This document shows positions 47,628 through 64,000 of a stretch of 64,000 bases of DNA, piece after piece. Positions within the stretch are counted from its first letter, which is position 1; each line of letters starts with the position of its first letter. Where the stretch lies: positions 281 through 64,280 of the forward strand of contig JAHHTZ010000008.1 in NCBI GenBank assembly GCA_020024285.1, read 5' to 3'. Source of the DNA: Oscillospiraceae bacterium (GTDB lineage: Bacteria; Bacillota; Clostridia; Oscillospirales; Ruminococcaceae). The position numbers were made by a program, and so were the translations under genes. The notes below the pieces were generated by a model that worked only from the letters and a program-made list of their open reading frames with translations, was not told the origin of the DNA and ran no database searches.

Positions 47628-48014
47628 ATGATGACCACATTGCTGATGGCTTTGTCGAATATGGTGCTGTTTGCGCTGCATATCCCTGCCATCGGCTCAT
47701 TCCCAAAGCCCCTGAGCAAGGAGGAGGAACAGGACTGCCTGAAGCGGCTCAAGGAGGGCGACGAAGAGGCGAAGGCGACCCTCATCGAGCACAACCTGCG
47801 TCTGGTGGCGCACATCATCAAAAAATACTATTCCACCTACCGCGAGCAGGAGGACCTCATCTCCATCGGGACCATCGGGCTCATCAAGGCAGTTTCGAGC
47901 TTTGATTACACGAAGGGGACGAAGTTTTCGACCTATGCGTCCAAATGTATCGAAAATGCTATCCTATCATCAGCGAACGGGAAACCCCCATTTACACAGT
48001 GCAGAGAAATATGA
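47628..48014 (+). pseudogene. sigK: 5' segment of sigK (pro-sigma-K): pro-sequence and regions 1.2-2.4 only, either split or truncated
   Basis: GSFPKPLSKEEEQ..., IEHNLRLVAHIIKKY and DLISIGTIGLIKAV...KFSTYASKCIEN are sigma-K hallmarks. Similarity ends right after ...CIEN (about nt 47958), and an unrelated 18-codon tail runs to a stop. Regions 3 and 4 are found nowhere in the window. Confidence 0.7.
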
Positions 48015-48082
48015 TAGAATGGCACTAAAACAGGCGCATAGAACAGCAGGAATGTGCGATCCGATCAAAGGGAGGGATTTTT

Positions 48083-48646
48083 TTGGCAAACACAACGAAG
48101 CGCGCGCTCGAAGCATCGCTCAAAAAGCTGATGCTCAAAAAGCCGCTCGACAAAATCACCATCGGGGACCTCACCGCCGACTGCGGCATCAGCCGGATGG
48201 CATTTTACTATCATTTTAAGGATATTTACGATCTGGTGGAATGGGTGTGCTTTGAGGATGCAAGACAGGCACTTCAGGGGAAAAAGACCCACGACACCTG
48301 GCAGGAGGGGCTGCTTCAGATTTTTGAAGTCGTGCTGGAAAACAAACCCTTCGTTCTCAACGCCTATCACTGTATAAACCGCGAGCAAATGGAGAATTAT
48401 TTATTTGCACTCACTTATCGCCTGATCCGCGATGTGGTGGAGGAAAAGAGCGGCGGGCTTGCAATCTCCGAGGACGATAAGGCGTTCATTGCGGATTTTT
48501 ACAAGTACAGCTTTGTCGGGGTGATGCTCGACTGGATCAAGCGGGGCATGAACGACGATTATCAGGAGCTGGTGCGAAAAATCACCACCACGCTGTACGG
48601 CAGCATGGCAAATTCCATCCGCAACTTTGTTTCAAATTCACAATAA
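48083..48646 (+). CDS. TetR-family regulator (DhaS-like)
   Basis: TTG start after AAAGGGAGGGA. HTH region ITIGDLTADCGISRMAFYYHFKDIYDLVEW. Confidence 0.82.
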   Translation: MANTTKRALEASLKKLMLKKPLDKITIGDLTADCGISRMAFYYHFKDIYDLVEWVCFEDARQALQGKKTHDTWQEGLLQIFEVVLENKPFVLNAYHCINREQMENYLFALTYRLIRDVVEEKSGGLAISEDDKAFIADFYKYSFVGVMLDWIKRGMNDDYQELVRKITTTLYGSMANSIRNFVSNSQ

Positions 48647-48729
48647 AAAATCGAGCGGCTGTCCCTATGCGGCTGCATTTTTCCACCATCCCGACACCCT
48701 GCGGTGCAAAGTTTTTACAATCTGTGCCT

Positions 48730-48750
48730 GATGATAAGCTTTTTATCATC
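48730..48750. promoter_or_regulatory. candidate TetR operator
   Basis: Perfect 8-bp-arm inverted repeat GATGATAA-gcttt-TTATCATC between the tetR and oleate hydratase genes. Confidence 0.4.
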
Positions 48751-48851
48751 GGCGCCGCTTTGTAAATTGCGCAAACGCAAAATGAGCGATAAGATAGGGT
48801 CATAGAAAAACCATCGGCAATGTGTGAAATCTTGGAAAGGCGGTTATTTTT

Positions 48852-50822
48852 ATGGCGAATACTCTTCCGGCAATCGCCGCAGCCGCAGCCGTTCTTGCAG
48901 GTGCAGGAGCTGCCGCAGCGGTGGCAAAGAAAAAGAAGGACAGCACAGGAGCTATGACAGTAAAACATACACAAAAGGGAAGTTCCTACCGCAATACAGA
49001 GCTTGGTGCTCACGAAAAAAACAGCAAGGGCATCTATTACACCAACGGCAACTTTGAGGCGTTTGCGCGCCCCGAAAAGCCGCAGGGCGTAGAGAACAAA
49101 CACGCCTATATCGTCGGCAGCGGACTTGCCGCCCTTTCGGCAGCGTGCTTCCTTGTGCGTGACGCACAGATGGAAGGCTCAAAAATCCACATCCTTGAAG
49201 CGATGGACGTTCCGGGCGGAGCCTGCGACGGCATCAACGACCCAAGCCGCGGCTATATCATGCGCGGCGGCCGCGAGATGGAAAACCACTTCGAGTGTCT
49301 GTGGGATCTGTTCCACAGCATCCCGTCCCTTGAGATTCCGGGGGCATCGGTGCTGGACGAATTTTACTGGCTCAATAAGCACGACCCCAACTACTCCCTG
49401 TGCCGTGCCACCGTCAACCGCGGCGAGGATGCCCACACCGACGGAAAATTCAACCTCAGCCAAAAGGCATGTATGGAGATCGTCAAGCTCTTTCTGACAA
49501 GGGACGAGGATCTCTACGACAAAACCATCGAGGATGTATTCGATGACGAAGTGTTCCAATCCACCTTCTGGCTCTACTGGCGCACCATGTTCGCCTTTGA
49601 AAACTGGCACAGCGCCCTTGAGATGAAGCTCTACTTCCAGCGATTCATCCACCATATCGCAGGTCTGCCTGATTTCAGCGCACTCAAATTCACCCGGTAC
49701 AACCAGTATGAATCCCTCATCCTGCCGATGGTGAAATACCTTGAAGCTGCCGGCGTGGACTTCCAGTACAACACCGAGGTGACAAACGTCCTCTTTGACA
49801 TCGACGGCACAAGAAAAGTGGCAACTGCCATCGAATGCAAGGTAAAGGGCGTGGAAAAAGGCATCCTCCTCACCGAAAATGACATGGTATTTGTCACAAA
49901 CGGAAGCTGCACCGAGGGCACCATCTACGGCGATCAGGACCATGCACCGAATGGCGATGCCGAAGTGCGCACCAGCGGCTGCTGGAACCTGTGGAAGAAC
50001 ATCGCAAAGCAGGACCCGGCGTTCGGCCGTCCCGAAAAATTCTGCTCTGACATTGCAAAGACCAACTGGGAATCTGCCACCATCACCACCCTCGACGACG
50101 CCATCCTCCCATATATCACAAACATCTGCAAGCGCGATCCGCGCACCGGCAAGGTCGTAACGGGCGGCATCGTGAGCTGCAAGGATTCCAAATGGCTGAT
50201 GAGCTGGACCATCAACCGTCAGGGTCAGTTCAAGGAACAGTCTCCGGAGCAGGTTTGCGTCTGGGTTTACGGACTCTTTACCGACGTTCCCGGCGACTAT
50301 ATCAAAAAACCGATGCGCGAATGCACCGGTAAGGAGATCACCGAGGAATGGCTCTACCACCTCGGCGTTCCGGTGGAGGACATCCCGACCCTCGCAGAGC
50401 ACAGCGCAGTCTGCGTGCCGACCATGATGCCGTATATCACCGCATTCTTCATGCCGCGCACAAAGGGCGACCGCCCCGACGTGATCCCGGACGGCTGTGT
50501 GAACTTTGCGTTCCTCGGTCAGTTTGCCGAAACACCGCGCGACACCGTCTTTACCACCGAATACTCCGTGCGCACCGCAATGGAGGCAGTATACGGTCTG
50601 CTTCATGTGGACCGCGGCGTTCCGGAGGTATGGGGCAGCGTCTATGACGTGCGCGAGCTGCTCAAAAGCTCCGTGTGCCTGATGGACGGCAAATCTCCGC
50701 TGGAGATCCCTCTGCCGGGACCGGTGAACCTCATCAAAAAGCCGATGCTCAAGGCAATCAAGGGGACCGTCATCGAAAAGCTGCTGCGTCAGTATCACAT
50801 CATCAAAAAGGGAATGCTCTAA
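48852..50822 (+). CDS. ohyA: oleate hydratase (MCRA-family FAD-dependent fatty-acid hydratase)
   Basis: AYIVGSGLAALSAACFLVRD FAD fold. Also GGREMENHFECLWDLF and other MCRA-type blocks. 656 aa. Confidence 0.9.
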   Translation: MANTLPAIAAAAAVLAGAGAAAAVAKKKKDSTGAMTVKHTQKGSSYRNTELGAHEKNSKGIYYTNGNFEAFARPEKPQGVENKHAYIVGSGLAALSAACFLVRDAQMEGSKIHILEAMDVPGGACDGINDPSRGYIMRGGREMENHFECLWDLFHSIPSLEIPGASVLDEFYWLNKHDPNYSLCRATVNRGEDAHTDGKFNLSQKACMEIVKLFLTRDEDLYDKTIEDVFDDEVFQSTFWLYWRTMFAFENWHSALEMKLYFQRFIHHIAGLPDFSALKFTRYNQYESLILPMVKYLEAAGVDFQYNTEVTNVLFDIDGTRKVATAIECKVKGVEKGILLTENDMVFVTNGSCTEGTIYGDQDHAPNGDAEVRTSGCWNLWKNIAKQDPAFGRPEKFCSDIAKTNWESATITTLDDAILPYITNICKRDPRTGKVVTGGIVSCKDSKWLMSWTINRQGQFKEQSPEQVCVWVYGLFTDVPGDYIKKPMRECTGKEITEEWLYHLGVPVEDIPTLAEHSAVCVPTMMPYITAFFMPRTKGDRPDVIPDGCVNFAFLGQFAETPRDTVFTTEYSVRTAMEAVYGLLHVDRGVPEVWGSVYDVRELLKSSVCLMDGKSPLEIPLPGPVNLIKKPMLKAIKGTVIEKLLRQYHIIKKGML

Positions 50823-50830
50823 GATATTGC

Positions 50831-50869
50831 AAAAGCAGCACTCCTCCGAACAGGAGGAGTGCTGCTTTT
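50831..50869. terminator. bidirectional terminator
   Basis: Hairpin gcagcactcctcc-gaaca-ggaggagtgctgc with A and T flanks. Confidence 0.75.
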
Positions 50870-51325
50870 CTATTGGTCTGAATTTTTGATGGTGTATCGG
50901 TATTCGCTGCTGCCAAAGAGTGTTTCGTCCAGCTCATAGACGGTGAAGGTCGTTCCGTCAAACTTCATCCGACCCTGACTGCTCTGCACGACAATGCCGT
51001 TTTCCACCTTATGGAAGGCGGCAAGATGACCCGTCAGATGGACCTCATACGACTGCCAGTCCTCGCCCGATTTGAAGCAGGCTGTCACGTTGGCGATCCT
51101 GCTGCTTTTTTCCGGGACCATCCTTGCGACAAGATAGCTGTTCCCATCGTCGGAAACCCAGGTGTCTTCCGACGACCAGGGACCCTCGTTGATGAGATAA
51201 TCCGCAAAACGGTGGTTCCCGTTCCATGCGTGGATCAGATAGGCGTAACAGCCTACCGCAACGAGCACGGCAATCACAAGCACGGCGGAAATCGTTCCGA
51301 CGATGATTTTTGTTTTCTTTTTCAT
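50870..51325 (-). CDS. membrane-anchored hypothetical protein
   Basis: MKKKTKIIVGTISAVLVIAVLVAVGCYAY anchor followed by a soluble domain of about 120 aa. No known motif recognised. Confidence 0.55.
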   Translation of the reverse strand: MKKKTKIIVGTISAVLVIAVLVAVGCYAYLIHAWNGNHRFADYLINEGPWSSEDTWVSDDGNSYLVARMVPEKSSRIANVTACFKSGEDWQSYEVHLTGHLAAFHKVENGIVVQSSQGRMKFDGTTFTVYELDETLFGSSEYRYTIKNSDQ

Positions 51326-51355
51326 CAAGATCATCCTTTCTAAGATCACACGGCA

Positions 51356-51598
51356 TTACGGTTTTGATTCCTTGCTGCGGATGATGACTTTAACAATCAG
51401 CGCAGCAGCGATCACCACAGCGGTAATTACTCCATAGATAATGATGCTCGTAACCCATGGAGCCGATTGGGAAGCAGGATATTTTTTTGCATTCAAAAAA
51501 ACATATGCTCCGTGTCCGATAAAAACGCCAATGCAGCATCCGATGATGGTATTTAATATCCGATTGATTTTCTTACCATATTTTTTCATCAGGTTCAT
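51356..51598 (-). CDS. small two-TM membrane protein
   Basis: 80-aa ORF with two hydrophobic helices, immediately upstream of the previous gene on the same strand. Confidence 0.5.
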   Translation of the reverse strand: MNLMKKYGKKINRILNTIIGCCIGVFIGHGAYVFLNAKKYPASQSAPWVTSIIIYGVITAVVIAAALIVKVIIRSKESKP

Positions 51599-51780
51599 CC
51601 TTTCTGCATCGTTTCAAAATCCCCGCAAAAACAAAGCCTCTATACGGATGATTATAGCACAGTTTCAGAGAAAGGAAAGGCTTATCACAGAAAAAGGCGC
51701 AGGGGCAGATTCGGTGGAAATTTTCCGCTTTGTGTGGTATACTCTTTGTAACAGAAGCACAGAAAACGGAGGGATTTGCA

Positions 51781-52224
51781 ATGACAGTGGAAAACCGTGC
51801 CGCATTAAACGGCATGAGCAGGCTTTTGGCATGGGGGCTGGCACTCTGGATGGTGCTGTCCCTTGCGGGATGCGGCAGCGGCGGGGAGATCGGCAGCATG
51901 AAGGTAACCCCGTGGGAGTCCGAGCTTTACTCGGAGCAGGAGGTTCAATCGGCAATCGATACAGCCGCCGACTACTTTAAGAAGGAATTTTCCGGCTGTA
52001 CGCTCACCGAGATCACCTATGCAGGCGACGAAGAGAGTGAGAAGGAGGCGCAGTATGCGCTCAAAAACGGCGCAGATGAAGTCATCGTCCTTGTTTCGAG
52101 CTTTACGGTGGATGAATCGGGCGGGGACGGCTCTCTCAATCCGAACAGCACCTACAGGAATTTTCAGTGGATCTTGATTCGCAAAAACGGCGGAAGCTGG
52201 CAGCACTTCGACCACGGATATTAA
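51781..52224 (+). CDS. hypothetical lipoprotein
   Basis: GGAGGGA RBS. Signal peptide and lipobox (VLSLAGC). Its last 45 codons begin a 150-bp tandem repeat array. Confidence 0.65.
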   Translation: MTVENRAALNGMSRLLAWGLALWMVLSLAGCGSGGEIGSMKVTPWESELYSEQEVQSAIDTAADYFKKEFSGCTLTEITYAGDEESEKEAQYALKNGADEVIVLVSSFTVDESGGDGSLNPNSTYRNFQWILIRKNGGSWQHFDHGY

Positions 52225-52525
52225 ATAGAAGCGTACCTCCTTGTTTCGAGTGTTGCGGTGGATGAATCGGGCGGGGATGGCTCGCTCAATCCAAACAGCA
52301 CCTACAGGAATTTTCCGTGGATTTTGATTCGCAAAAACGGCGGCAGCTGGCAGCACTTCGACCACGGATATTAAATAGAAGCGCACCTCCTTGTTTCGAG
52401 CGTTGCGGTGGATGAATCGGGCGGGGACGGCTCGCTCAATCCGAACAGCACCTACAGGAATTTCCAGTGGATCTTGATTCGCAAAAGCGGCGGCAGCTGG
52501 GAGCACTTTGAGCATGGAGATAAAA
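52088..52525 (+). repeat. three tandem copies (period 150 bp) of the lipoprotein gene 3' end
   Basis: tccttgtttcgag recurs at 52088, 52238 and 52388. Copies 1 and 2 each end in ...HFDHGY-TAA (stops at 52222 and 52372). Copy 3 diverges at its end (...WEHFEHGDKTKQ) before the terminator. Confidence 0.9.
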
Positions 52526-52531
52526 CAAAAC

Positions 52532-52564
52532 AGAAGGCAGCACGGGTTCTCCGTGCTGCCTTCT
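52532..52564. terminator. bidirectional terminator
   Basis: Hairpin agaaggcagcacgg-gttct-ccgtgctgccttct. Confidence 0.7.
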
Positions 52565-52602: not shown

Positions 52603-53505
52603 TTAGTCTGCTGCGGCGCAGATGCCGGCGATGGTGCCGTCTGCAACGGCGGTGGATACCTGACGCACCGCCTTTATGCGGATATCGCCTGCCGCGTATA
52701 CGCCGGGGATGGCAGTTTCCATTTTTTCGTTTGTTGGGATAAAGCCGTCCTCAAGGGTGAGTTCGGTATAAAGTGCGGTGTTCGGCAGAGTACCTGCATA
52801 CACAAAGATGCCGCAGCCTGCATCCTCGATGGTTTCGATGGCGCCTGTTTTTTCGTCGGAGATTTCAAGCGACTGCACCTGATCGACGCCGTATACCGCA
52901 TGAAGTCTGGAATGCAGACACAGGGAGATGTTCGGGGTCTGCGCCACCTTATCACGGAATTCCGCAATGCAGCCGAGCTGATCTTCAAAGTGGATGATGG
53001 TCACCTTGGCACCGAATTTTGCAAGGTAGAGCGCTTCCTTCACCGCGCCGTCGGCTCCGCCCACTACGTAGATGTTTTTGCCGCGGTACAGTTCGGCGTG
53101 TTTTGCAGCATTCATCGACATTCCCTTGCCGGCAAGCTCTGCTTCGCCGGGGATCGCAAGCTTTCTTGGGGACGTTCCGTTTGCAAGGATGACTTTTTGT
53201 GCTTCGTAGATTTTTTGTGCGGTGTGGATCTTCTTCGTTTTGCCCATCAGCTCCACCGAGGTGACCTCTGTGTTTACGATCTCGATGCCGGAGCGCTCTG
53301 CCTGCTCCTTCAGACGCCGGGAGAAGGTGTCGCCCGTTTCCGCTTCGATGACCGATGCATAGTGGGTGACGGTGGATACCTTCCCGATCAGTCCGCCCAC
53401 TGCGTTTTTCTCCAGAATCACCGTTTTCCTTCCGCGGCTGACCGCATAGATCCCGGCACTGATCCCCGCCGGACCTGCTCCGATAATTACAACATCATAC
53501 ATCAT
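52603..53505 (-). CDS. thioredoxin-reductase-like FAD/NAD(P)-dependent oxidoreductase lacking the CxxC redox centre
   Basis: AAAAAGGAGGAG RBS. Start MMYDVVIIGAGPAGISAG. Second dinucleotide fold YVVGGADGAVKEALYL, and GVYAAGD. Where TrxB carries CATC, this protein reads MNAAK. Confidence 0.85.
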   Translation of the reverse strand: MMYDVVIIGAGPAGISAGIYAVSRGRKTVILEKNAVGGLIGKVSTVTHYASVIEAETGDTFSRRLKEQAERSGIEIVNTEVTSVELMGKTKKIHTAQKIYEAQKVILANGTSPRKLAIPGEAELAGKGMSMNAAKHAELYRGKNIYVVGGADGAVKEALYLAKFGAKVTIIHFEDQLGCIAEFRDKVAQTPNISLCLHSRLHAVYGVDQVQSLEISDEKTGAIETIEDAGCGIFVYAGTLPNTALYTELTLEDGFIPTNEKMETAIPGVYAAGDIRIKAVRQVSTAVADGTIAGICAAAD

Positions 53506-53644
53506 GTTCGCTCCTCCTTTTTGAATCTGCCTTTTTGTTCTACCCATACTATACTGCGCACACTTCACTTTGTAAAATTATAATAATTGATATTATGATA
53601 AAAATAGCTTATCATAGACAGCAGAAGAAAGTGAGGTGCCGATC

Positions 53645-54631
53645 ATGCTTGACTATCGTATGGAAACTTTTTTGGCTGTGTGCAAATACATGAACTTTAC
53701 CCACGCCGCACAGGAGCTGAATCTGACGCAGCCTGCCGTGTCCCAGCACATCCAGTATCTGGAGAAAAAATACGAATCGCCGCTTCTCATCCGCGAGAAC
53801 AAAAAGCTCTCCCTCACACCGGCAGGGGAGATCCTGCGCTCTGCGCTGGAAACCATGCGAAACGACGAAAATACCATGAAAAAGCGCATGAAGGAGAGCC
53901 TGTGTGCCAAGAAGCTCATCACCTTCGGCGTGACGATGACCATCGGGGAATACGCCATCCTGCCTGCACTTGCAAAGCTCATCCACGCGCACCCCGACAC
54001 CGATTTTTACATCCGATACGGCAACACGCAGACGCTGCTGTCGTACCTGTATGAGGGGAACATCGATTTTGCGGTGGTGGAGGGGTATTTTAAGGAGGAG
54101 CAGTACAACAAGCGCGTCTTTCGCAACGAGCAGTATATCGCCGTCTGCGCGGCGGGGCATCGCTTTGCGCAGGAGATCCGCTGTCTGCGCGACCTCACAG
54201 GCGAGCGCCTTCTGGTGCGGGAGCTGGGCTCCGGCTCGCGCGCCATCCTCTCAAGGACGCTTGCTGTCAACAACCTCTCCATTCAGGACTTTGGAGGGAT
54301 CGTCGAGGTGGAGAACATCCACACGCTGGTGTCGCTGCTGCTGGAGGACTGCGGCATCACCTTTTTGTATCAGTCCGCCGTGGAGCAGGAGCTGCGAAAA
54401 GGCACCATCCAAAAGATTTTGCTCTCGGATTTTTCCATGAGCCACGACTTTACCTTCATCTGGAACAAGGACAGCATCTTTTCGGGAGAATACGATCATA
54501 TCTTTGACGAGCTGTGCGAGAATACGCCCGCACAGGACGACCCATTGGAAGAAGCCGTCTGCACTGCACAAAATTGGGACGAGCAGGAGGATGGCTGCGA
54601 CCTTGGGAAGAATTTTTCGAGGTTTGAATAA
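53645..54631 (+). CDS. LysR-family transcriptional regulator
   Basis: HTH region METFLAVCKYMNFTHAAQELNLTQPAVSQHIQYLEKKY. Divergent from the TrxB-like gene. Confidence 0.85.
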   Translation: MLDYRMETFLAVCKYMNFTHAAQELNLTQPAVSQHIQYLEKKYESPLLIRENKKLSLTPAGEILRSALETMRNDENTMKKRMKESLCAKKLITFGVTMTIGEYAILPALAKLIHAHPDTDFYIRYGNTQTLLSYLYEGNIDFAVVEGYFKEEQYNKRVFRNEQYIAVCAAGHRFAQEIRCLRDLTGERLLVRELGSGSRAILSRTLAVNNLSIQDFGGIVEVENIHTLVSLLLEDCGITFLYQSAVEQELRKGTIQKILLSDFSMSHDFTFIWNKDSIFSGEYDHIFDELCENTPAQDDPLEEAVCTAQNWDEQEDGCDLGKNFSRFE

Positions 54632-54689: not shown

Positions 54690-55220
54690 TTACAGAGCTG
54701 CCCCGCTGTCCTCCTGCGAGAGCATCCGAAGGCAGGCGTTCAAATAGATCATATGGCAGACGGCGGTGATCGCGCTCCTCAGCATCTCCTTTTCTATGGA
54801 GGAGGTCACTCCCACATCGTCGATCGAATCCTTGAGCCCAAAGCAGCAGCCCAAAACATTCTCGATCTCAAGGCAGAAATAGTCGTACGCCGTTTGCTCG
54901 CAGTAAGCTGTTTTCTGAAGCGAAAACAGCTTGCTGATGTGTTCGAGCGGGGCGGCATGCTTTAAGACGGCGATGCAGATGAGGTGGGCGATGTGCGGTG
55001 CCTTGTAGAGCTTGTTTACGGGATTTGGCACCAGCCCCTGCTTGACGTAGTTGCGCACCATCGAGCCTGTGATTTCGATGCAGCCGAGTTGTTTGAGGCA
55101 TTGATTGATATATTTGACGGTCTGTTCGAGATAAAGTCCAACGTTTGGCAGCTCGGCGTATCTTGGCAGACGAAACCCACGCATCCAATCTGCCAACGCC
55201 TGTTTTAATTTTGTATCCAT
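54690..55220 (-). CDS. DUF1836-domain protein
   Basis: LPRYAELPNVGLYLEQTVKYIN...ITGSMVRNYVKQGLV matches my memory of DUF1836. The start is taken as MDTKLK. Confidence 0.65.
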   Translation of the reverse strand: MDTKLKQALADWMRGFRLPRYAELPNVGLYLEQTVKYINQCLKQLGCIEITGSMVRNYVKQGLVPNPVNKLYKAPHIAHLICIAVLKHAAPLEHISKLFSLQKTAYCEQTAYDYFCLEIENVLGCCFGLKDSIDDVGVTSSIEKEMLRSAITAVCHMIYLNACLRMLSQEDSGAAL

Positions 55221-55410
55221 AGCTTTATTATAAAAAAATTTTTGCAAAAGTCAACGCTGCAAAAAAGTGCTTGACGAATGAGAGGATGCATGATACCATA
55301 ATACAGGTTTTTAAAAAACCTCTAACAGAGTAGAAGAAACCTCGATGCCCTGCGGTCTGCGCAGGAAATCGAAATTTTGTGAGCATCCAAACAAAAAAGG
55401 AGTTATAACA

Positions 55411-56634
55411 ATGGAAAAAACAAGCACGATGTCCCGTGCAAAGAAAATCACGCTCGCTGTGATCGGCGTGCTGCTTTTGATTGTCTTGGTTCTTGGGATC
55501 ACCGTTTATGCAGTATGGCACAACGAGCTTTCCACCCTTCAAAGCATCCGCCTTCTGCGCGAGCGCAACGACGAGCACCTCGACGGAGCCGTTTACACGA
55601 TGCACGTCAAGGGGGGATTTTACCTCGATGAATTCATCGAGCAGGGCGGCGTCAAAAACGACAGCGAGCTGATCGCCTTCATCACCAACAACATCACAAA
55701 AGGGCTCCTTGATATGAGCTTCGACGCGCCGGAGATCGCCTGCTCCTCCTTCACGGCAACGGCAGAAAACGGCGACCGTCTCTTCGCACGCAACTATGAC
55801 CTCAAAAAGACGAACACCTGCCTTGTCTTTACCGAAGCGCAAAACGGACGCCATGCCACCATATCGAGCGTCGATCTCCACTTTCTCGGCATTTCCCCCG
55901 ACCACAACATGGAAAAATTGATGGACAAGGTGACAGCGCTTGCAGCACCGTATATCCCGCTGGACGGCATCAACGATGCCGGCGTGAGCTGCGGGGTGTA
56001 CATGACGACACAGGGCGGGGAAGAAACCGTCGCAACCGACCAAAATACCGACAAGCCGGACTTTACCTCCACAACGCTCCTGCGCCTCATCCTCGACTAT
56101 GCAGACAGCGTGGAGGATGCCGTGCAGATCGCATCGTCCTTTGACCTGCACGACTCCGCAAAGACCTCCTACCACTACATGGTGGCAGATGCAACCGGAA
56201 AGAGCGCCATCCTCGAATGGGTAGCAGGTACCGACTCCACCGACAACGACGGCAGCCGCCGCGAGCTTGTTGTGACCTATCACGACGACGATGCCCACAT
56301 CGGGGAGCGCGAGGGCGCAACAGACTATCAGGTCATCACGAACTTCATCATCCAGCCGGGCTACTATGAAGGCTCGGAAAAAGAGGACAAGAAGGGCGTA
56401 GACCGCTACGAAAAGCTCTATGAGGAGCTGGAAAAAACAAACGGCATCGTCGCAGACGAGAGTGCCGCCATGCAGATCCTGAGCACCGTGGGCAGAAGGA
56501 GCTGGAACAACGACGACAAAAACAGCTGCACCATCCACAGCGTTGTCTACAACATGACAAAGCGCACCGTGCAGTGGGTCCCGAACGAAAACTACGACGA
56601 CCCAAGCGCCGTGTATGAATTTTCGTTTTCCTAA
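55411..56634 (+). CDS. membrane-anchored linear amide C-N hydrolase (choloylglycine hydrolase/Ntn, C59-like)
   Basis: AAAAGGAG RBS and an N-terminal TM anchor. Candidate nucleophile Cys111 (nt 55741) in IA|CSSFTA, with Arg at +16 and Asp at +19 (FARNYD). This matches the Cys2/Arg18/Asp21 spacing of BSH/PVA enzymes. Confidence 0.72.
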   Translation: MEKTSTMSRAKKITLAVIGVLLLIVLVLGITVYAVWHNELSTLQSIRLLRERNDEHLDGAVYTMHVKGGFYLDEFIEQGGVKNDSELIAFITNNITKGLLDMSFDAPEIACSSFTATAENGDRLFARNYDLKKTNTCLVFTEAQNGRHATISSVDLHFLGISPDHNMEKLMDKVTALAAPYIPLDGINDAGVSCGVYMTTQGGEETVATDQNTDKPDFTSTTLLRLILDYADSVEDAVQIASSFDLHDSAKTSYHYMVADATGKSAILEWVAGTDSTDNDGSRRELVVTYHDDDAHIGEREGATDYQVITNFIIQPGYYEGSEKEDKKGVDRYEKLYEELEKTNGIVADESAAMQILSTVGRRSWNNDDKNSCTIHSVVYNMTKRTVQWVPNENYDDPSAVYEFSFS

Positions 56635-56864: not shown

Positions 56865-57332
56865 ATGACGATCCATGATATTGCAAGAATGATGGTGAGC
56901 AGAGAACGCTTTCAGCGTCAAAGCTCGGAGCCGAAGCTAAAAAACGGCTCGCTGCCTCCAAAGGGTCATGTGAATCCCTATTGTCCCGAAGGCATGGACA
57001 TTACCGGAATGAAAGAGTCTGACTTCAAATTCATCCCTGTATCCAAAGACGCAGAGCAGCAGATGAAGGATATTGCGTTCAGCCAGATGAAAAATAATTA
57101 TGGAATGACAGGTGAACGTGGGGATGTGGCAGAAGCAGTTAAGGCTTATTTATCCAAAATCCCTGCAAAAGATCGCATCAATGCCGGATGGACATTAAAT
57201 CATGTTTATCAGGCAGAAGCTCGAAAGTTATCTGACTTTATAAAATCCCGTGTTCCCGGCTGGCAGCATGGGCAGGTCTTTGATACCAGCATCCTGGACG
57301 AATACAAGCAGGGCATCGATATCATGGCGTAA
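56865..57332 (+). CDS. hypothetical protein
   Basis: 155-aa ORF after an AAAGGAG RBS. No confident family assignment. Confidence 0.5.
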   Translation: MTIHDIARMMVSRERFQRQSSEPKLKNGSLPPKGHVNPYCPEGMDITGMKESDFKFIPVSKDAEQQMKDIAFSQMKNNYGMTGERGDVAEAVKAYLSKIPAKDRINAGWTLNHVYQAEARKLSDFIKSRVPGWQHGQVFDTSILDEYKQGIDIMA

Positions 57333-58006
57333 TGGGGGATGCCTTCGCTCTCATTCAAAGCATCCGAAACGAATCCAGAGAGCATCGATACGATGGGGAG
57401 CCGCACAAGGAAGGGATGCGCTCTCTCCATTATTTCATACAGGAGGAAGATAATGTGCGGCAAATCGATTTTACTCCATCCGAGCACTATAAAAACTCAT
57501 TGAAACCATTGGACAAAGAACGCTTGATCCCTTACAATTTACCGGATGATATATTCAATTTTTTAACCCAGACAGGGCTGCCAGTTGATACAAGCTTTGA
57601 ATTTAATGCAAACATATCCATTACATTTTGTGCGTTTCCCGTTCTAAAGAAATATCCATATCTTCAGCATGACTATCTATATTTTGCAAGTATGGAGGAA
57701 ATGGGAGAGCTATCGATCGATCTGCACTCCAAAGATGTATTCCAGTATGTAGATCAATACATGCCGCATAGCTTAGTGAATTCGAGTATAGAGAAGTTCA
57801 TAGAATCTTTAGGCATGTGGTTAACGTTTTACCCGCAATTTCAGAGTTATATGGAAGAAATGTACGAGGAAGATCCATGCTTCAGCCTTTTTGAAGATGA
57901 TGAAATACTCAGGCTGATGAGCAATAAAATAAAAGAACTTGATCCATATTCTATGAAATATCAAAAATTCTTTTGGAGCAGGATGTGTGAAGCGGATCTA
58001 TTTTGA
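57332..58006 (+). CDS. hypothetical protein, possibly a SUKH/SMI1-KNR4-like immunity-type protein
   Basis: ORF in a visibly AT-richer stretch. The more likely start is the GTG at 57455, preceded by CAGGAGGAAG. Resemblance to SUKH-type proteins is weak (YNLPDDIFNFLTQTGLP... and an acidic C-terminus). Confidence 0.4.
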   Translation: MGDAFALIQSIRNESREHRYDGEPHKEGMRSLHYFIQEEDNVRQIDFTPSEHYKNSLKPLDKERLIPYNLPDDIFNFLTQTGLPVDTSFEFNANISITFCAFPVLKKYPYLQHDYLYFASMEEMGELSIDLHSKDVFQYVDQYMPHSLVNSSIEKFIESLGMWLTFYPQFQSYMEEMYEEDPCFSLFEDDEILRLMSNKIKELDPYSMKYQKFFWSRMCEADLF

Positions 58007-58241: not shown

Positions 58242-59399
58242 ATGGTTCGATCCAAGCATATTAAAACCTCTGAGGTCCAGCTGTGGCGCAAGCGGAAAAA
58301 TTGGGGCTATGCACTGCCGCTCGTGCTGCTGTTGCTGCTGGGCTTGTGGCTCATCCCCAAATGGACCCGTTCGGGATTTGCCATAGACGGGATCGCGCTG
58401 CTCCTCCTTGCGCTGCTTACGCTCTTTGCTTCGGTGCCCTGCTGTCTGATTTGGAACGCGATTTGCCGCCAAAAATGGAAAAACGCGCTGCATCGAACGG
58501 AATTTGATGCAAAACAGGACCTTGAGTATTACCGCGACAAGCTCACAGAGCTTTCGCCGGCACAGATCAGCCTGCTCACCGATTTGAAGCTCGAACGGAA
58601 AAAGGACCTGGCGGCGACCCTCTTAAAATTGCAGCTCAACGGTGTGATCGCCATTCAGGATGGCTGCGTGAGCATAGCCGATGTCCCAGAGGATTCGCTT
58701 TGCACCAGCGATCGGCTGCTTTTGCGGTATCTAAAAGAGCATCCCCGGCTTTCGGACGAAACCTCGGACGGGCTGGCACACTGGGAGAGAGCGGCGTTGG
58801 AGGAGGCAGCCGAGGGCGGCTTCTTCCGGGGGAAGGAGCTATCCAAAAAGCACGGATTTCGCAGGAGCGGCTGCCTGCCCACGATTTTGGCTTTTGTGCT
58901 GATGCTGGTGCTGCTGTTCAACAAGGACACTGCATACTTTAACGAGGTGTCACAGTGCGTGGAGAATGCATCGTCAGAGGTGTCCAACCAATATTTTGTG
59001 CAGATGATGACAAAGGATGTCCGCTTTGCCCGCGGCGTGATTTGGACGGTGCTCGGCTCTGTGGCGGGGCTGTTCTTTCTGGCATACCCTCTGACAGCGG
59101 CGGCGCGCGGCTTTTTGCAGACCTCGGCAGAAAAACAGCTTAACATCGAGCGCACCGCCAAGGGGATGGAATATACCGAATATGTCTACGGTCTTAAAAA
59201 TTTCATCCACGACTTTTCTAATCTGTCTGAGGTCCAGCAGGAGCAGCTCATTTTGTGGGATGACTTTTTGATTTATGCTGTTGTACTGGAGGAAAACACG
59301 CGGATTTTGGATGAGATCTTCCGGCAAAGAAATGGGGAAGCGCGCACAGCGTGTGCCTATTCTTCCCTAAAAGCGCTGGACGAAAGGAGCTTTTTATGA
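58242..59399 (+). CDS. DUF2207-like membrane protein
   Basis: Several TM helices. The C-terminal block GLKNFIHDFSNLSE...LILWDDFLIYAVVL resembles DUF2207 proteins, which typically pair with LemA. Confidence 0.6.
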   Translation: MVRSKHIKTSEVQLWRKRKNWGYALPLVLLLLLGLWLIPKWTRSGFAIDGIALLLLALLTLFASVPCCLIWNAICRQKWKNALHRTEFDAKQDLEYYRDKLTELSPAQISLLTDLKLERKKDLAATLLKLQLNGVIAIQDGCVSIADVPEDSLCTSDRLLLRYLKEHPRLSDETSDGLAHWERAALEEAAEGGFFRGKELSKKHGFRRSGCLPTILAFVLMLVLLFNKDTAYFNEVSQCVENASSEVSNQYFVQMMTKDVRFARGVIWTVLGSVAGLFFLAYPLTAAARGFLQTSAEKQLNIERTAKGMEYTEYVYGLKNFIHDFSNLSEVQQEQLILWDDFLIYAVVLEENTRILDEIFRQRNGEARTACAYSSLKALDERSFL

Positions 59400-59950
59400 A
59401 ACCGATGATTCTTGTGCTTGCAGCTGCTGCGGTGCTGCTGGTGGTTTATGTGATCTGCGGCTACAACCGCTTTGTGAAGCTGAGGAACCGGGTGCGCGAT
59501 CAGCAGGCCCAGATCGACGTGCAGACAAAGCGCCGCTGCGACCTGATCCCCAACCTGATCGAAACGGTGAAGGGCTGTGCAAACTTTGAAAGATCCACGC
59601 TGGACGCGGTGGTTTCGGCACGGAGCAGCCTTTTGAACGGCAGCAGCCCCGCCGAAAAGGATGCGGCAGATGCCGCCCTCACCTCGGCACTGCATCACCT
59701 GATTGCCGTGTCCGAAGGCTATCCGGACTTAAAGGCAAGCGCCAATTTTGCTTCGCTGCAAAAAGAGCTGTCCGAAACGGAGGACAAAATCGCAAAGGCG
59801 CGGCAGTTCTATAACGACACAGTGCTCAAATACAACGATGCGATCGAGGTTTTCCCCGCCTCTCTGGTGGCAAAGCTCACCGGATTCGGCAAGATCGAAT
59901 TCCTGAAAGCGGCAGAATTCGAAAGGGAAGCTGTGAAGGTTCAGTTTTAG
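59396..59950 (+). CDS. lemA: LemA-family protein
   Basis: ATGA overlap with the upstream gene. TM anchor followed by YNRFVKLRNRVRDQQAQIDVQTKRRCDLIPNLIETVKG and ...ARQFYNDTVLKYNDAIEVFP. Confidence 0.9.
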   Translation: MKPMILVLAAAAVLLVVYVICGYNRFVKLRNRVRDQQAQIDVQTKRRCDLIPNLIETVKGCANFERSTLDAVVSARSSLLNGSSPAEKDAADAALTSALHHLIAVSEGYPDLKASANFASLQKELSETEDKIAKARQFYNDTVLKYNDAIEVFPASLVAKLTGFGKIEFLKAAEFEREAVKVQF

Positions 59951-60421
59951 ATCAAACAGTAAATTCAAATTTGGAGCAGCACCCCATCTTTCAGGCAGCA
60001 GGACCGGATGCCCGAAAGATGGGGTGCTTGTTCTGTCAAACGACTGCACCAAGCCTTCCAAAGCGTGTGCCCTGATTTGCAGAGCAATATGAAATTTTAA
60101 GCAGAGCGGTGCGGCATCCGCGGCGGTAAGTTTACAATTTCTCTCTTCCCATCCAAAGATGGATGCTCTATAATAAAGTCAGAGATGACCGGACGAAGGG
60201 ACGCGTTTTTGCAAAAGAATGTGCAGCCGATGCTTTGAAAAGGCTCGGCACCGGCGCAGAACACCATGCTGTCTATGCGGCTGCATTTGCTGGAGCAGCG
60301 GTTCTTCGCGATAGAAACAGAGGCTCTCCGTTCACCTTTGGGAAAATCGGGAGATATCCTGCGGTGCTTATGGATCGATCGAGCACACGCTTTTCATATT
60401 ATTTTTAAGGAGGATACAAAA

Positions 60422-61405
60422 ATGAGAGTATTATTTTACGGCGGCACCTACGCACAAGTGTTTTTCAAAGGACACCTGCACCTTTTGGACGAGGCAGGAG
60501 TGGAGTATGATTTGGTGGAACCGGGTACACCGGAGGCTTTGGCAGAGGTCAGCAAGGGTCACGATGCTGTCATCACCTTCTTCCCTCTGCGCGAGGAGGC
60601 AGTCAATTCTCTGGCGGATTCCGTAAAGGCAATCATTGTTACGTCGATCGGCTATGACAACATTGATATGGAGGCTGCCAGCAAGCGCGGCATCATGGTG
60701 TGCAACATTCCCGACTACTGCATCGAAGAGGTTGCACTGCACTCGGTTACGCTGATCCTGTGCGCTTTGCGCAACATCTGCCAATATGACCGCACGATCC
60801 GCAGCGGCGGCTGGAAAGACCGTTCGATGCTGTGCGGCAGAGCACATCACCGCATGTCTACACTGACGATGGGCTTTTTAGGCTTTGGCGGGATCGGACG
60901 GATGGTTTGCAAGCAGATGTCGGGCTTTGGGGTAAAATTCGTAGCGTATGACCCATACGTTCCGGCAAGTGTTTTTGAGGAAATGGGGGTACAGCGCGTG
61001 GAAACCAAGGATGAGCTGTATGCAGTGTCCGATATTATCGGGGTTTATCTCATTTTAACCGATGAAACCTATCATCTCATCAACGAGGAAGCCATCGCCA
61101 AAATGAAGGATGATGTCATTTTGGTCAATACTGCCCGCGGTGCGATCATCGATTTGGACAGCGTGAAAAAGGGACTGAAATCCGGGAAAATCGGCGCGGT
61201 CGGCTTTGATACCTGGGAGCAGGAGCCGATCCCTGCGGATGACCCGATCCTTCAGGAGGACAATGCGACGATCACATCGCACTGTGCTTACTTCTCCATC
61301 GAGGCTGCAATCGATTTGCGTGTAAAATGCCTGACAACGGCGATCAATGTGTGCAAGGGAGAAATTCCGTATAACTGCGTAAACAAAAAAGCTCTGGGGC
61401 TGTAG
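60422..61405 (+). CDS. D-isomer-specific 2-hydroxyacid dehydrogenase family protein
   Basis: AAGGAGGA RBS. Motifs GFLGFGGIGRMV (GxGxxG), VNTARG and ...TSHCAY.... Confidence 0.85.
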   Translation: MRVLFYGGTYAQVFFKGHLHLLDEAGVEYDLVEPGTPEALAEVSKGHDAVITFFPLREEAVNSLADSVKAIIVTSIGYDNIDMEAASKRGIMVCNIPDYCIEEVALHSVTLILCALRNICQYDRTIRSGGWKDRSMLCGRAHHRMSTLTMGFLGFGGIGRMVCKQMSGFGVKFVAYDPYVPASVFEEMGVQRVETKDELYAVSDIIGVYLILTDETYHLINEEAIAKMKDDVILVNTARGAIIDLDSVKKGLKSGKIGAVGFDTWEQEPIPADDPILQEDNATITSHCAYFSIEAAIDLRVKCLTTAINVCKGEIPYNCVNKKALGL

Positions 61406-61572
61406 TGAGCATCGGCTCAATGCGCGTCCCCCGGTTTGCTGCGGCATCTATGCTGAACGGTTTGGCATCCCCTTTGTTTGCTCTCAGCGAGCGGGCAGGG
61501 GGGATGCCTTTGTAAATCAAGGGATGGAAAAATCGCGGCTGCTGTGGTAAACTGAATAAAAAATGCTGGGGG

Positions 61573-62259
61573 ATGGAGCTTGTGGAAGGGATACGGCAAC
61601 TGATAGAAAGAGGACTGATGGGCGCGGCTGTCATTGCAGGCGCATTGGCTGGATTTGCAGGCTTTTTGTTCCTGCTGTATCGTCTGATAAAGTGCATGCG
61701 CCCAAAAGAGGTGCGGCAGGCGGAGCAAAAAATTTTGTCCCATCGGTTTTATCCGCTTTCCGGGCGCGGCCGGATTGCTTACCTTATTCTTTGTCTGGAA
61801 CAAACATTGCAATGCTGCGGACAGGATCTTACGGCCTGGGAATGGATTTTGCGAAAGCTATGGTCGATCACAGATGATTCTCAAAGCAGCTGGATCGATG
61901 CCTGGCTGGACTGCGTCGGGGAGCTGCTTCCGAGCGCAGTTTTAAGAAACGACAAATCGGCAGAAAATGCACAGGCGAAAATACTTTATGAGCAAACCGG
62001 AGCTGCGATGATTGTCATAAACACGATACTCGATTGTGCTTATACGATCGTCTGCGAATGGTCGCCTGATACCGCTGCCCATGACCCGGACGCGCTGGGG
62101 AACCTGGACCGAGCGGAAGCGGCTATGGAAGAGTTCGGGATTTCGCTCCCATCGAATGAAAGCATACAAGCGCTGCTCTCAGAGCAAAAAAGTTCTTCCT
62201 TCGGAAAACCGTTCGATGGTCTGCGCTATTCCGTTCTGTCGCAGGGAAAAAATGCTTGA
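61573..62259 (+). CDS. hypothetical protein with N-terminal TM helix
   Basis: ORF only. The start is uncertain (61573 or ATG at 61618). No recognised motif. Confidence 0.45.
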   Translation: MELVEGIRQLIERGLMGAAVIAGALAGFAGFLFLLYRLIKCMRPKEVRQAEQKILSHRFYPLSGRGRIAYLILCLEQTLQCCGQDLTAWEWILRKLWSITDDSQSSWIDAWLDCVGELLPSAVLRNDKSAENAQAKILYEQTGAAMIVINTILDCAYTIVCEWSPDTAAHDPDALGNLDRAEAAMEEFGISLPSNESIQALLSEQKSSSFGKPFDGLRYSVLSQGKNA

Positions 62260-62715
62260 GGGCGAGGATGAAAGAAGAGCCGGAGCGGGAATATCAGCCC
62301 GCACCGTCCGGGCGCATAATCTCAACGTGCATCATCGTGCTCCTAAAACAGGAAGCGGCAAGCTGTTTAGAGCTTGCCGCTTCGCCGTTTTGCACTGCCT
62401 TGTCCTGTTTTGTTCAGTCGGTGCTTTTGTATTATGGAATTTGTTTGGGATGAAATTCTGTATATAAAAAGATGTTCAGCGCAGAAACTCATGACTTCGG
62501 AACAATGCAAAAGGTATTATCCCGAATGATAGTGATATCGTCTCACGGACATAAAATCTGCGCCGCCATAAAATTCATAGCGAATTTTCAACAATTACAA
62601 TTCGTTGCTATTTTCCAAAACGAAAAACCGCATCTGAACCATAAGACGGTTCAGTGAGCGACGATGGGTATGTTGTGTCTGGATGAAAAACACTGTTCTT
62701 GCAAGGGCAAAAAGG

Positions 62716-63825
62716 TTAGAGCAAGGCGACGGCGATTAAGATCACAAGTCCAACAACATTTGCCGCAGTGAATACAGCCAAAAAACGTCCCCCCTGCGAT
62801 TTGGGCCATGCCAGATACAGCTTCAACGTGATGAGACTGGCCAGAGATGCAATTGGGGTTCCCAGACCACCGATATTGACTCCCTCCAATAAGGGTTTCC
62901 ACGCATCCGTGAATGTGGACAGCAGCACAGCTGCCGGAACGTTGCTGATAATCTGACTGGCACCCACTGCGGTGAGCAGAGGGTTTCTGGCCAGAAGTTT
63001 CTGTAAGAAAATCCGCACGATCTCGATGCGGCCTAAATTCCCGGAAACAATGAAGAAACAAACAAAGGTGACCAGCAGCGCGTAGTCCACATCCGCCAAA
63101 ACATGCCAGTCCATAAATCCAATGACAAGGATCACCAAGACAGCTGCGATTCCATATGGGAGAACTCGAAAGACGGTGAGCAGACACAGGACGAACAAAA
63201 CAGCATACACCATAAGCTGTTTTGGAGTGCGGATCTGTCCCTCAAGTTCTGGTGCAGGAAGCTCCTTGGGGAGTATTGGAACAGCAGCCACTGCAAGACA
63301 CACCAGACTAATGAGGGTCAGCGGGAGCATGGCAGCAAAAAACGACTCAGCAGAGAGTTCATAGGTGGCATACAGAAAAAGATTCTGCGGATTTCCAACC
63401 GGAGTTGCCATGCTGCCCAAGTTTGCGGCAATGGTTTGCAGCACCAAAATCGGAATCGCTGCCGTTTGACACCCAATCTGCTCTAATAGCAGTAGTGTAA
63501 AAGGAACGAAGGTTAGTAGAGCTACATCGTTGGTCACGAGCATGGCAGCAAAAAAGGGCAGTAATATTAAAATCACACCCAGGGTCCTGCCGCCGCTGCT
63601 GTGCCGCAAAAGGACTGCCGCCAACCATTGAAATGTACCGCATCTCTGGAATCCGGCCACAACAGCCATCAAACACAGCAAAAGGCACAAAACCCTCAAA
63701 TCTATATATCCAAGGTAAGCGCCATCCGGTGGCACCAGAAGCATAGTAACCATGGCACACACAGCGGCAATGCACATGACTTTCTCTCGCTGCATCCAGA
63801 CGAATATTTTTTTTAGCACGATCAT
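62716..63825 (-). CDS. ArsB/NhaD-superfamily (YbiR/SLC13-like) anion permease
   Basis: Polytopic protein with ...GYIDLRVLCLLLCLMAVVAGFQ... and ...LGSMATPVGNPQNLFL..., typical of this permease superfamily. The start codon is uncertain. Confidence 0.72.
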   Translation of the reverse strand: MIVLKKIFVWMQREKVMCIAAVCAMVTMLLVPPDGAYLGYIDLRVLCLLLCLMAVVAGFQRCGTFQWLAAVLLRHSSGGRTLGVILILLPFFAAMLVTNDVALLTFVPFTLLLLEQIGCQTAAIPILVLQTIAANLGSMATPVGNPQNLFLYATYELSAESFFAAMLPLTLISLVCLAVAAVPILPKELPAPELEGQIRTPKQLMVYAVLFVLCLLTVFRVLPYGIAAVLVILVIGFMDWHVLADVDYALLVTFVCFFIVSGNLGRIEIVRIFLQKLLARNPLLTAVGASQIISNVPAAVLLSTFTDAWKPLLEGVNIGGLGTPIASLASLITLKLYLAWPKSQGGRFLAVFTAANVVGLVILIAVALL

Positions 63826-64000
63826 ACCTCCATCAATACACTTTAAGGTGCTTTTAATAAACCCAATCACAACACGCAGAAAATCCGCATTTTCTAACGG
63901 CTTCTTATAATGAATACAGCAGATGTGCAGAAACTTGAACGACAAACTTCCGATCTATGTATTTGATTGTTAGTACCTGAGTGGAATCTTTACAGCAATT

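What the first reader, a model, noticed from the sequence alone, without database searches (positions are those of the whole stretch)
47628..64000. sigK is present only as its 5' segment: possible skin-like intervening element of at least 16 kb, or a sigK remnant
The ORF at 47628 encodes a typical pro-sigma-K N-terminus through region 2.4 (...STYASKCIEN). Homology stops abruptly at about nt 47958, and the ORF terminates after an unrelated 18-codon tail. The next gene (TetR) starts about 125 nt later, so a simple frameshift cannot explain the loss. No ORF encoding sigma regions 3-4 occurs on either strand in the remaining 16 kb. In Bacillus subtilis and Clostridioides difficile, sigK is interrupted by a 'skin' element that a recombinase excises in the mother cell. 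If the same applies here, everything from ~47958 to beyond the window end is element cargo. That cargo would include oleate hydratase, the CxxC-less TrxB-like/LysR pair, the Ntn hydrolase, an immunity-like gene, the DUF2207-like/LemA pair, a dehydrogenase and a permease. This would be a notably non-phage-like cargo. The insertion point, at the end of region 2, would also differ from the B. subtilis junction.
Basis: partly seen in the sequence, partly recalled or inferred. Interest (0 to 1): 0.7.

Follow-up and report, generated by a model that had tools for sequence, protein, structure and literature searches.

The report
Sporulation sigK gene split by insertion
The gene for the late sporulation sigma factor SigK is cut in two here by an inserted DNA element at the recombinase target site that such elements commonly use in this bacterial group, so this is an ordinary new example of a well-known arrangement; its far end lies outside the window.

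Summary
ORF 47628-48014 encodes a pro-SigK N-terminus through region 2.4 (…CIEN, codon 110), followed by an 18-codon unrelated tail. Neither strand of the 64-kb window holds sigma regions 3-4 or a large serine recombinase (LSR).

The break is a recognisable LSR attL site, not a random truncation:
- SigK homology ends at GAAAA|TGCTATCCTATC (crossover AA at 47955-47956).
- The element-side half-site, TGCTATCCT, is the reverse complement of the AGGATAGCA motif that precedes the sigK 3' half in related genomes.
- In those genomes an LSR gene ends (…EDSK*) inside the same core.

Relatives show the same split at the same codon:
- 85 of the 120 nearest protein clusters.
- 15 of 80 related reference-genome loci.
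- Two complete elements (9.7 and 7.2 kb), both with non-phage cargo.

Split 5' halves evolve under strong purifying selection.

Most likely this is the left ≥16 kb of a skin-like sigK-intervening element whose recombinase and 3' sigK half lie beyond the window. I could not reach that sequence, so a recently immobilised remnant is not excluded.

This is a new member of a known kind and of low interest.

The parts
47628..47957 (+). sigK 5' segment: codons 1-110, covering the pro-sequence and sigma regions 1.2-2.4 and ending ...STYASKCIEN
   Evidence: NCBIfam SigK models, E ~1e-44. tblastn to SigK of relatives, 55-84% identity. dN 0.14-0.19 against saturated dS versus other split 5' halves.
47954..47958 (+). 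att core AAATG shared by target and element. The inferred crossover dinucleotide is AA at 47955-47956.
   Evidence: Alignment of attL (window, L001, L005, L034), attR (16 loci) and intact attB (8 loci).
47957..47990 (+). Element-side half-site of attL (P' arm), TGCTATCCTATCATC... The first 9 nt are the exact reverse complement of the AGGATAGCA that precedes the sigK 3' half in 8 related genomes. It matches L034 attL over gctatcctatc.
   Evidence: On the minus strand the arm reads TGA TGA TAG, so no recombinase gene reads through this end.
47958..48014 (+). 18-codon read-through tail plus stop (AILSSANGKPPFTQCREI*), encoded by element DNA
   Evidence: Among the nearest clusters, 85 of 120 have unrelated tails at the same codon.
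47957..64000 (.). Left part (at least 16,044 bp) of the inserted element. It contains no recombinase, no phage, plasmid or conjugation genes, and no right end within the window.
48083..48646 (+). Cargo: TetR-family regulator
   Evidence: Pfam TetR_C_8 4.9e-35, TetR_N
48852..50822 (+). Cargo: oleate hydratase (MCRA family) with an N-terminal hydrophobic extension
   Evidence: Pfam MCRA 3e-225
51730..52537 (+). Cargo: lipoprotein-like ORF (51730-52224) whose 3' end is triplicated as 150-nt tandem repeats (52088-52537)
52603..53568 (-). Cargo: pyridine nucleotide-disulphide oxidoreductase (TrxB-like)
   Evidence: Pfam Pyr_redox_2 1e-38
53636..54631 (+). Cargo: LysR-family regulator
   Evidence: Pfam HTH_1, LysR_substrate
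54690..55247 (-). Cargo: DUF1836 protein
   Evidence: Pfam 8.6e-23
55345..56634 (+). Cargo: Ntn-hydrolase (AAT / choloylglycine-hydrolase-like)
   Evidence: Pfam AAT 4e-11, CBAH 1e-6
56865..58006 (+). Cargo: DUF3879-like ORF translationally coupled to a SUKH-4 immunity-type protein
   Evidence: Pfam; ATGA overlap at 57332
58242..59950 (+). Cargo: DUF2207_C membrane protein and LemA
   Evidence: Pfam
60266..61405 (+). Cargo: D-2-hydroxyacid dehydrogenase
   Evidence: Pfam 2-Hacid_dh_C 4.5e-49
62716..63945 (-). Cargo: CitMHS-family permease. A 94% nt-identical copy sits in unrelated flanks in a metagenome contig.
   Evidence: Pfam

Best explanation
The sigK gene of this Oscillospirales-type bacterium is interrupted after codon 110 (…CIEN) by a skin-like, sigK-intervening element that integrated through a large serine recombinase (LSR). 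The window holds the 5' sigK half, the left attachment site (attL, crossover AA at 47955-47956) and the first ~16 kb of the element. That DNA carries ordinary regulatory, metabolic and membrane genes.

By analogy with related genomes, the recombinase gene should sit at the far (right) edge, with its stop codon inside the att core and the 3' sigK half (…EILMxFR…) directly after it.

In the sporulating mother cell the recombinase, probably helped by a directionality factor, would recombine attL with attR. This would excise the element as a circle and restore GAA AAT GAA ATC (…CIENEILM…), giving a full pro-sigma-K.

Shown here: the 5' half, the attL anatomy, its match to the family, and purifying selection on split 5' halves. 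Inferred: the existence of the 3' half and recombinase in this genome, and excision during sporulation.
For: 1. The break is at a specific site. All sigK homology ends at 47957-47969. The element side begins TGCTATCCT, the exact reverse complement of the AGGATAGCA that directly precedes AAT-GAR-ATH-YTN-ATG of the sigK 3' half in L020, L029, L031, L034, L036, L052, L055, L061 and L070. The inferred attP core is therefore the palindrome GAGGATAGCA-AA-TGCTATCCTC. A 9-nt match at a fixed position has a chance of about 4e-6.

2. Complete examples exist at the same codon. L005 is 9.7 kb, with the LSR at the left edge and the 3' half at 20059. L034 is 7.2 kb, with the LSR at the right edge and an attL (gctatcctatcc) nearly identical to the window's. 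LSRs of 569-604 aa lie directly upstream of the 3' half in L029, L031, L036, L037, L055, L062, L101 and L102.

3. The split is common. 85 of the 120 nearest clusters have a non-SigK tail right after CIEN, mostly AIL[S/T]. 15 of 80 related GTDB representative loci are split at this codon.

4. The 5' half is intact and conserved: dN 0.14-0.19, dS saturated or 1.1, dN/dS below 0.2 against three other split 5' halves.

5. A 10-mer upstream, CATAAACATA, is identical to that upstream of intact sigK in L074 and L078.

6. The literature describes exactly this kind: skin elements of 2.6-48 kb that share only the SpoIVCA-like recombinase, which always sits at an edge and usually next to the 3' half (bioRxiv 10.1101/2022.02.25.481979).

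7. A SpoIID-domain gene lies in the window.
Against: No 3' sigK half and no recombinase were found for this genome. The contig (87,149 bp; protein P0001) is not in the position index. It was not among the 80 loci returned from reference genomes. No 3' fragment on a contig of that length appeared among the 120 best C-terminal hits.

The 16 kb seen has host-like GC3 and no mobility genes at all, which would also fit a decayed element. Several Oscillospirales lineages have lost sporulation. The purifying-selection signal cannot resolve the terminal branch.
Confidence: 0.65

Rival explanations
1. Immobilised element or sigK remnant. The element did insert by the same recombinase route, but the recombinase and/or the 3' sigK half have since been lost or separated. 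In that case the 5' half is a young pseudogene in a lineage that no longer sporulates or that uses another sigK copy.
For: No recombinase, 3' half or any mobility gene lies in 16 kb of element DNA. Cargo composition is host-like. The cargo is mosaic: the permease occurs at 94% nt identity in unrelated flanks. No partner fragment was identified.
Against: The 110-codon 5' half has no frameshift or stop and keeps all conserved SigK residues. The attL inner half-site is intact. The usual position of the recombinase is the far edge, which is simply outside the window. In every relative where both ends could be seen, the element was complete (L005, L034).
Confidence: 0.22
2. Non-canonical reconstitution. 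The two sigK halves are joined by a different geometry: inversion between inverted att sites, deletion of a very large host-like chromosomal block, or a recombinase supplied in trans from elsewhere in the genome.
For: The cargo looks like ordinary chromosome. The whole sigK locus is inverted relative to a conserved 5'-nucleotidase neighbour between two related genomes (L087 versus L101), so local rearrangements around sigK do occur in this clade. Recombination between oppositely oriented attB and attP sites (DNA inversion) was among the recombination events set up in the E. coli plasmid assays for the C. difficile recombinase (PMC5025042).
Against: No relative examined shows inverted halves. 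All resolved cases are direct-orientation excision cassettes with their own LSR. No inverted 3' half lies in the 47 kb upstream.
Confidence: 0.08
3. Assembly artefact: a chimeric join in a metagenome-assembled contig placed unrelated DNA after a truncated sigK.
For: The source is probably an unannotated MAG: the protein has no accession and forms a single-member cluster.
Against: The join falls exactly at the family's crossover dinucleotide and is followed by the family-specific half-site. A random chimera would not reproduce this.
Confidence: 0.03

Closest known systems
skin(Bs), the 48-kb sigK-intervening element of Bacillus subtilis, excised by SpoIVCA
   Same: sigK is split at the end of region 2.4. 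The B. subtilis-group 5' product P0275 (156 aa) diverges after CIENEI and the window after CIEN, about two codons apart. The recombinase is a large serine recombinase at an element edge. The 5' ORF reads into element DNA for a short tail.
   Different: In B. subtilis the recombinase sits next to the 5' half and the cargo is prophage-like. Here the left edge has no recombinase and the visible cargo is metabolic and regulatory. The crossover is offset by a few bp. Identity between these LSRs and SpoIVCA was not measured.
skin elements of 15 Firmicutes surveyed by Galperin et al. (bioRxiv 10.1101/2022.02.25.481979)
   Same: Sizes are 2.6-48 kb. Nothing is shared between elements except a SpoIVCA-like recombinase, which always lies at an edge and usually directly upstream of the 3' half. 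That is the architecture inferred here.
   Different: I did not determine whether that survey's 15 species include any with this attL/attR pair. The very high frequency of the split found here in this clade was not compared with that survey.
Complete elements found here: Oscillospiraceae bacterium PP1C4 (L005, 9.7 kb) and Ruminococcaceae bacterium UBA1405 (L034, 7.2 kb)
   Same: Same codon, same AAATG core, same TGCTATCCT half-site, and non-phage cargo. L005 carries a sugar ABC transporter and a DeoR regulator. L034 carries an acyltransferase, flavin reductase, alpha/beta hydrolase and ferredoxin-domain protein.
   Different: Both are shorter than the ≥16 kb seen here and share no cargo with the window. 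L005 has its LSR at the left edge.
Non-prophage gene-intervening elements: B. cereus biovar anthracis island IV in sigK (PMC10745906) and gin in gerE (PMC5595907)
   Same: Sporulation-gene-intervening elements without phage genes, excised by serine recombinases during sporulation.
   Different: Different insertion sites (sigK nt 195; gerE), different hosts (Bacilli), and cargo dominated by DNA-metabolism genes or several recombinases.
skin(Cd) of Clostridioides difficile (CD1231 recombinase plus CD1234 directionality factor; PMC5025042)
   Same: LSR-mediated excision of a sigK-intervening element. This is the model for a mother-cell-specific directionality factor, which may apply here.
   Different: Different site in sigK and opposite orientation. 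C. difficile SigK lacks a pro-sequence, whereas the window's 5' half has one.

Membership tests
skin-like (sigK-intervening) element | A sigK 5' segment that ends in-frame at an internal position and reads into foreign DNA | tested here: met
   SigK homology covers codons 1-110, followed by an unrelated 18-codon tail.
skin-like (sigK-intervening) element | The junction is a recombinase attachment site: a short core shared with the target, flanked by an element half-site that is the inverted repeat of the other end | tested here: met
   core AAATG and P' arm TGCTATCCT, the reverse complement of the AGGATAGCA P arm of attR in related genomes. The window's own attR is unseen, so the inverted-repeat test is against family members, not its own partner.
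skin-like (sigK-intervening) element | A matching sigK 3' segment elsewhere in the same genome | tested here: inconclusive
   Absent from the 64-kb window. The rest of the contig and genome was not retrievable.
skin-like (sigK-intervening) element | An element-encoded SpoIVCA-like large serine recombinase at one edge | tested here: inconclusive
   Not at the left edge nor within 16 kb. The minus strand of the P' arm carries three stop codons. The right edge lies outside the window. In relatives the LSR is usually at the right edge.
skin-like (sigK-intervening) element | Precise excision in the mother cell restores sigK | not testable with these tools
   Needs PCR or long reads from sporulating cells.
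skin-like (sigK-intervening) element | The host is an endospore former | tested here: inconclusive
   The only sporulation-associated gene seen in the window is a SpoIID-domain gene. Relatives with the same split include cultured Oscillospiraceae genera.
Prophage / phage-derived skin | Phage structural, packaging or lysis genes in the element | tested here: not met
   No such Pfam or PHROG families in 47957-64000. No phage DNA similarity. Only the visible 16 kb was tested.
Decayed sigK pseudogene | Disabling mutations or relaxed constraint in the remaining fragment | tested here: not met
   The 110 codons are intact, and dN/dS is below 0.2 against three other lineages. A very recent loss cannot be excluded.

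The most novel reading that the evidence does not exclude
The two sigK halves are separated by a large block of host-like, recombinase-free chromosome. sigK would then be rebuilt in the mother cell by a recombinase encoded elsewhere, or by inversion. Sporulation would thereby include a programmed deletion or rearrangement of ordinary metabolic and regulatory genes (oleate hydratase, TetR and LysR regulators, transporters) rather than removal of a mobile element.
Probability: 0.08. Interest if true: 0.6.

Novelty: new member of a known kind. Interest (0 to 1): 0.25.

Why it matters
For annotation, this ORF should not be called a pseudogene or a generic 'sigma-70 family' protein. It should be labelled the 5' half of a split sigK, with 47957 onward flagged as element DNA.

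More broadly, the comparative data collected here indicate that one recombinase/att-site family occupies the same codon of sigK in a large share of Oscillospirales gut and rumen lineages, with highly variable non-phage cargo. That is a useful data point for two questions: how stable such developmental 'switch' elements are, and what they carry. It extends a well-established phenomenon rather than revealing a new one.

Tried and rejected
1. Fetching the rest of the source contig. Exact-protein look-ups of P0001 and three window proteins were all 'not on record'.

It returned 80 SigK loci but no permease hit.

3. C-terminal SigK protein search. None of the 120 listed fragments sits on an 87,149-bp contig. 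Two candidates from the nearest clade, P0142 and P0197, belong to other assemblies.

4. Metagenome scan with the permease, to extend past the window end. Close homologues (up to 94% nt) exist, but their flanks are unrelated and hold no LSR or sigK.

5. Search of viral contigs for the inferred attP palindrome GGATAGCAAATGCTATCC. There were three hits, all plain hairpins with no recombinase nearby.

6. Search of the window for the predicted attR, allowing up to 3 mismatches: none.

7. A 16-nt inverted repeat between 47975-47990 and 57629-57644. It is not followed by the expected half-site, so it is chance.

8. Synteny test with relatives. No genes flanking sigK are shared at DNA or protein level, so synteny cannot decide.

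9. Plasmid and phage DNA similarity of the cargo. Only the conserved core of oleate hydratase matched.

10. Upstream promoter alignment. It is too divergent to call a sigma-E/K promoter; only a shared CATAAACATA 10-mer was noted.
Full report
**The observation.**
The ORF at 47628-48014 (+) encodes 128 aa. Residues 2-114 match the curated SigK models NF004471 (E 6.7e-45) and TIGR02846 (E 3.6e-44), over profile positions ~4-117 of 227-235. SigE and the other sigma models score clearly lower. The bit scores are about half the full-length cut-offs, as expected for half a protein. A B. subtilis SigK sequence written from memory aligns over residues 1-115 to 47631-47966 and nowhere else.

The 3' sigK half and the recombinase of a related complete element find nothing in the window. 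Profile HMMs built from 18 SigK C-terminal halves and from 10 recombinases, run with all filters off on six-frame translations, also find nothing (best E 0.53 and 1.5).

**The nature of the break.**
DNA similarity to sigK of all relatives ends between 47957 and 47969. I aligned four left junctions (window, L001, L005, L034), sixteen right junctions and eight uninterrupted sigK genes.
- Uninterrupted genes read …TGY-ATH-GAR-AAT-GAR-ATH-YTN-ATG… (CIENEILM).
- Left junctions read …GAAAAT|GCTATCCT….
- Right junctions read …AGGATAGCAAAT|GAR-ATH….

The shared core is AAATG (window 47954-47958). The element arms on either side are reverse complements of one another, so the excised site would be the palindrome GAGGATAGCA-AA-TGCTATCCTC. 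Its non-palindromic central AA (window 47955-47956) is the anatomy expected of a large-serine-recombinase (LSR) site; that expectation is from general knowledge of these recombinases. The window's arm, TGCTATCCTATC, matches this consensus over its first 9 nt and is almost identical to the left arm of L034. The truncation is therefore a bona fide attL, not a deletion, frameshift or assembly accident.

**What relatives show.**
- In Oscillospiraceae bacterium PP1C4 (L005) the 5' half is followed by a 599-aa LSR (Resolvase/Recombinase/Zn_ribbon_recom) on the opposite strand, then a sugar ABC transporter, a DeoR regulator and, 9.7 kb on, the 3' half starting …NEVLMHFR.
- In Ruminococcaceae bacterium UBA1405 (L034) the element is 7.2 kb. 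It carries an acyltransferase, flavin reductase, alpha/beta hydrolase and ferredoxin-domain protein. Its 576-aa LSR sits at the right edge and its stop codon lies inside the att core (…CEDSK*).
- LSRs of 569-604 aa sit directly upstream of the 3' half in L029, L031, L036, L037, L055, L062, L101 and L102.
- Of 80 reference-genome loci returned with the SigK C-terminal half, 15 lack the adjoining 5' half at exactly this codon. One further locus is interrupted elsewhere.
- Of the 120 nearest protein clusters to the window's ORF, 85 carry a non-SigK tail immediately after CIEN (mostly AILS or AILT), 10 end within three residues, and 22 continue as intact SigK.
- The closest relative (84% identity; L086) carries a different element at the same site, with RepA_N, ParM-like, IstB-like and STAND-NTPase genes.

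Cargo is thus highly variable and generally not phage-like in this clade.

**Is this copy alive?**
I could not reach the remainder of the 87,149-bp source contig.
- Exact look-ups failed.
- The single reference-genome scan returned no locus from it.
- A metagenome scan with the last gene of the window found close homologues, but in unrelated contexts.

Indirect evidence favours a functional split gene.
- The 110 codons are intact.
- Against three other split 5' halves, dN is 0.14-0.19 while synonymous sites are saturated or at dS 1.1, so dN/dS is below 0.2.
- The inner att half-site is intact.
- The missing recombinase is expected at the far edge. Published surveys report the recombinase always at an edge, usually next to the 3' half (bioRxiv 10.1101/2022.02.25.481979), and most loci seen here agree.
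- On the minus strand the window's arm reads TGA-TGA-TAG, so a left-edge recombinase like that of L005 was never the arrangement here. The architecture resembles L034.

Against this:
- Sixteen kb without a single mobility gene, and with host-like GC3, also fits an old domesticated or decaying element.
- Sporulation has been lost in several Oscillospirales lineages.
- The window offers only a SpoIID-domain gene as evidence for sporulation.

I put about 0.65 on an excision-competent element, 0.22 on a recent remnant, and the rest on unusual geometries or artefact.

**Comparison with what is known.**
This is the skin paradigm. In B. subtilis, sigK is rebuilt by SpoIVCA-mediated excision. In C. 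difficile, CD1231 does the same with the directionality factor CD1234 (PMC5025042). Further examples occur across Firmicutes (PMC4191935; bioRxiv 10.1101/2022.02.25.481979). Elements without phage genes are documented in B. cereus biovar anthracis sigK (PMC10745906) and in gerE (PMC5595907).

A B. subtilis-group 5' product (P0275: 156 aa, 118 member sequences, on ~4.15-Mb contigs) reads …ARCIENEI|VITKGG… The skin(Bs) junction is therefore only about two codons 3' of the one here. Other published elements do use different sites: nt 195 and 423 in the B. cereus group, and nt 427 for C. perfringens phage ΦS63.

**Verdict.**
The finding is real and correctly recognised. It is a new member of a known kind. 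The most useful by-products are the precise att-site model and the evidence that this site is occupied in a large share of related gut and rumen lineages.

Noticed in passing
window 52088-52537: Three tandem copies of a 150-nt unit (93% and 87% identity to the first). They duplicate the 3' end, including the stop codon, of the lipoprotein-like ORF 51730-52224.
   Followed up: no
L031, L034, L036, L055 (right edges of elements): The recombinase ORFs end …CEDSK* with the TGA stop inside the att core (GAGGATAGCAAATGA). Excision and circularisation would therefore change the recombinase C-terminus. In L005, where the recombinase is at the left edge on the opposite strand, the same arm again encodes …EDS….
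   Followed up: partly
L041 4621-10354 (uncultured Neglecta sp., CAJFMJ010000011.1): sigK appears interrupted at a different position (around SigK residues 60-65) by about 5 kb that contains a resolvase-like hit.
   Followed up: no
L080/L082 (JAFQCR010000010.1): Two apparently intact sigK copies lie in inverted orientation about 9.3 kb apart on one contig. This could be an inverted duplication or an assembly artefact.
   Followed up: no
L087 8401-10348 versus L101 3617-6080: An orthologous 5'-nucleotidase (82.5% aa identity) lies upstream of the sigK 5' half in one genome. In a related genome it lies downstream of the 3' half on the opposite strand. The whole sigK locus is therefore inverted relative to this neighbour.
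   Followed up: partly
window 62716-63945; L088 (RCNI01002463.1): The CitMHS permease gene has a 94% nt-identical copy in a metagenome contig whose flanks on both sides are unrelated to the window. This suggests mosaic accessory DNA.
   Followed up: partly
protein P0011 (ENA contig, 1943 bp): A 217-aa SigK-like protein, 83% identical to the window's 5' half, continues correctly past the junction (EILMHFRNKKK…). Its last ~60 residues look like a different sigma region 4. It may be a chimera or a recombinant.
   Followed up: no
window 2325-3467: A SpoIID-domain protein (Pfam 5.8e-20) is the only sporulation-associated gene seen outside sigK in the window.
   Followed up: no
window 47545-47554; L074 and L078 upstream of sigK: An identical 10-mer, CATAAACATA, lies upstream of the sigK start in the window and in two rabbit-gut MAGs with intact sigK. 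It may be part of a mother-cell-type -10 element.
   Followed up: no
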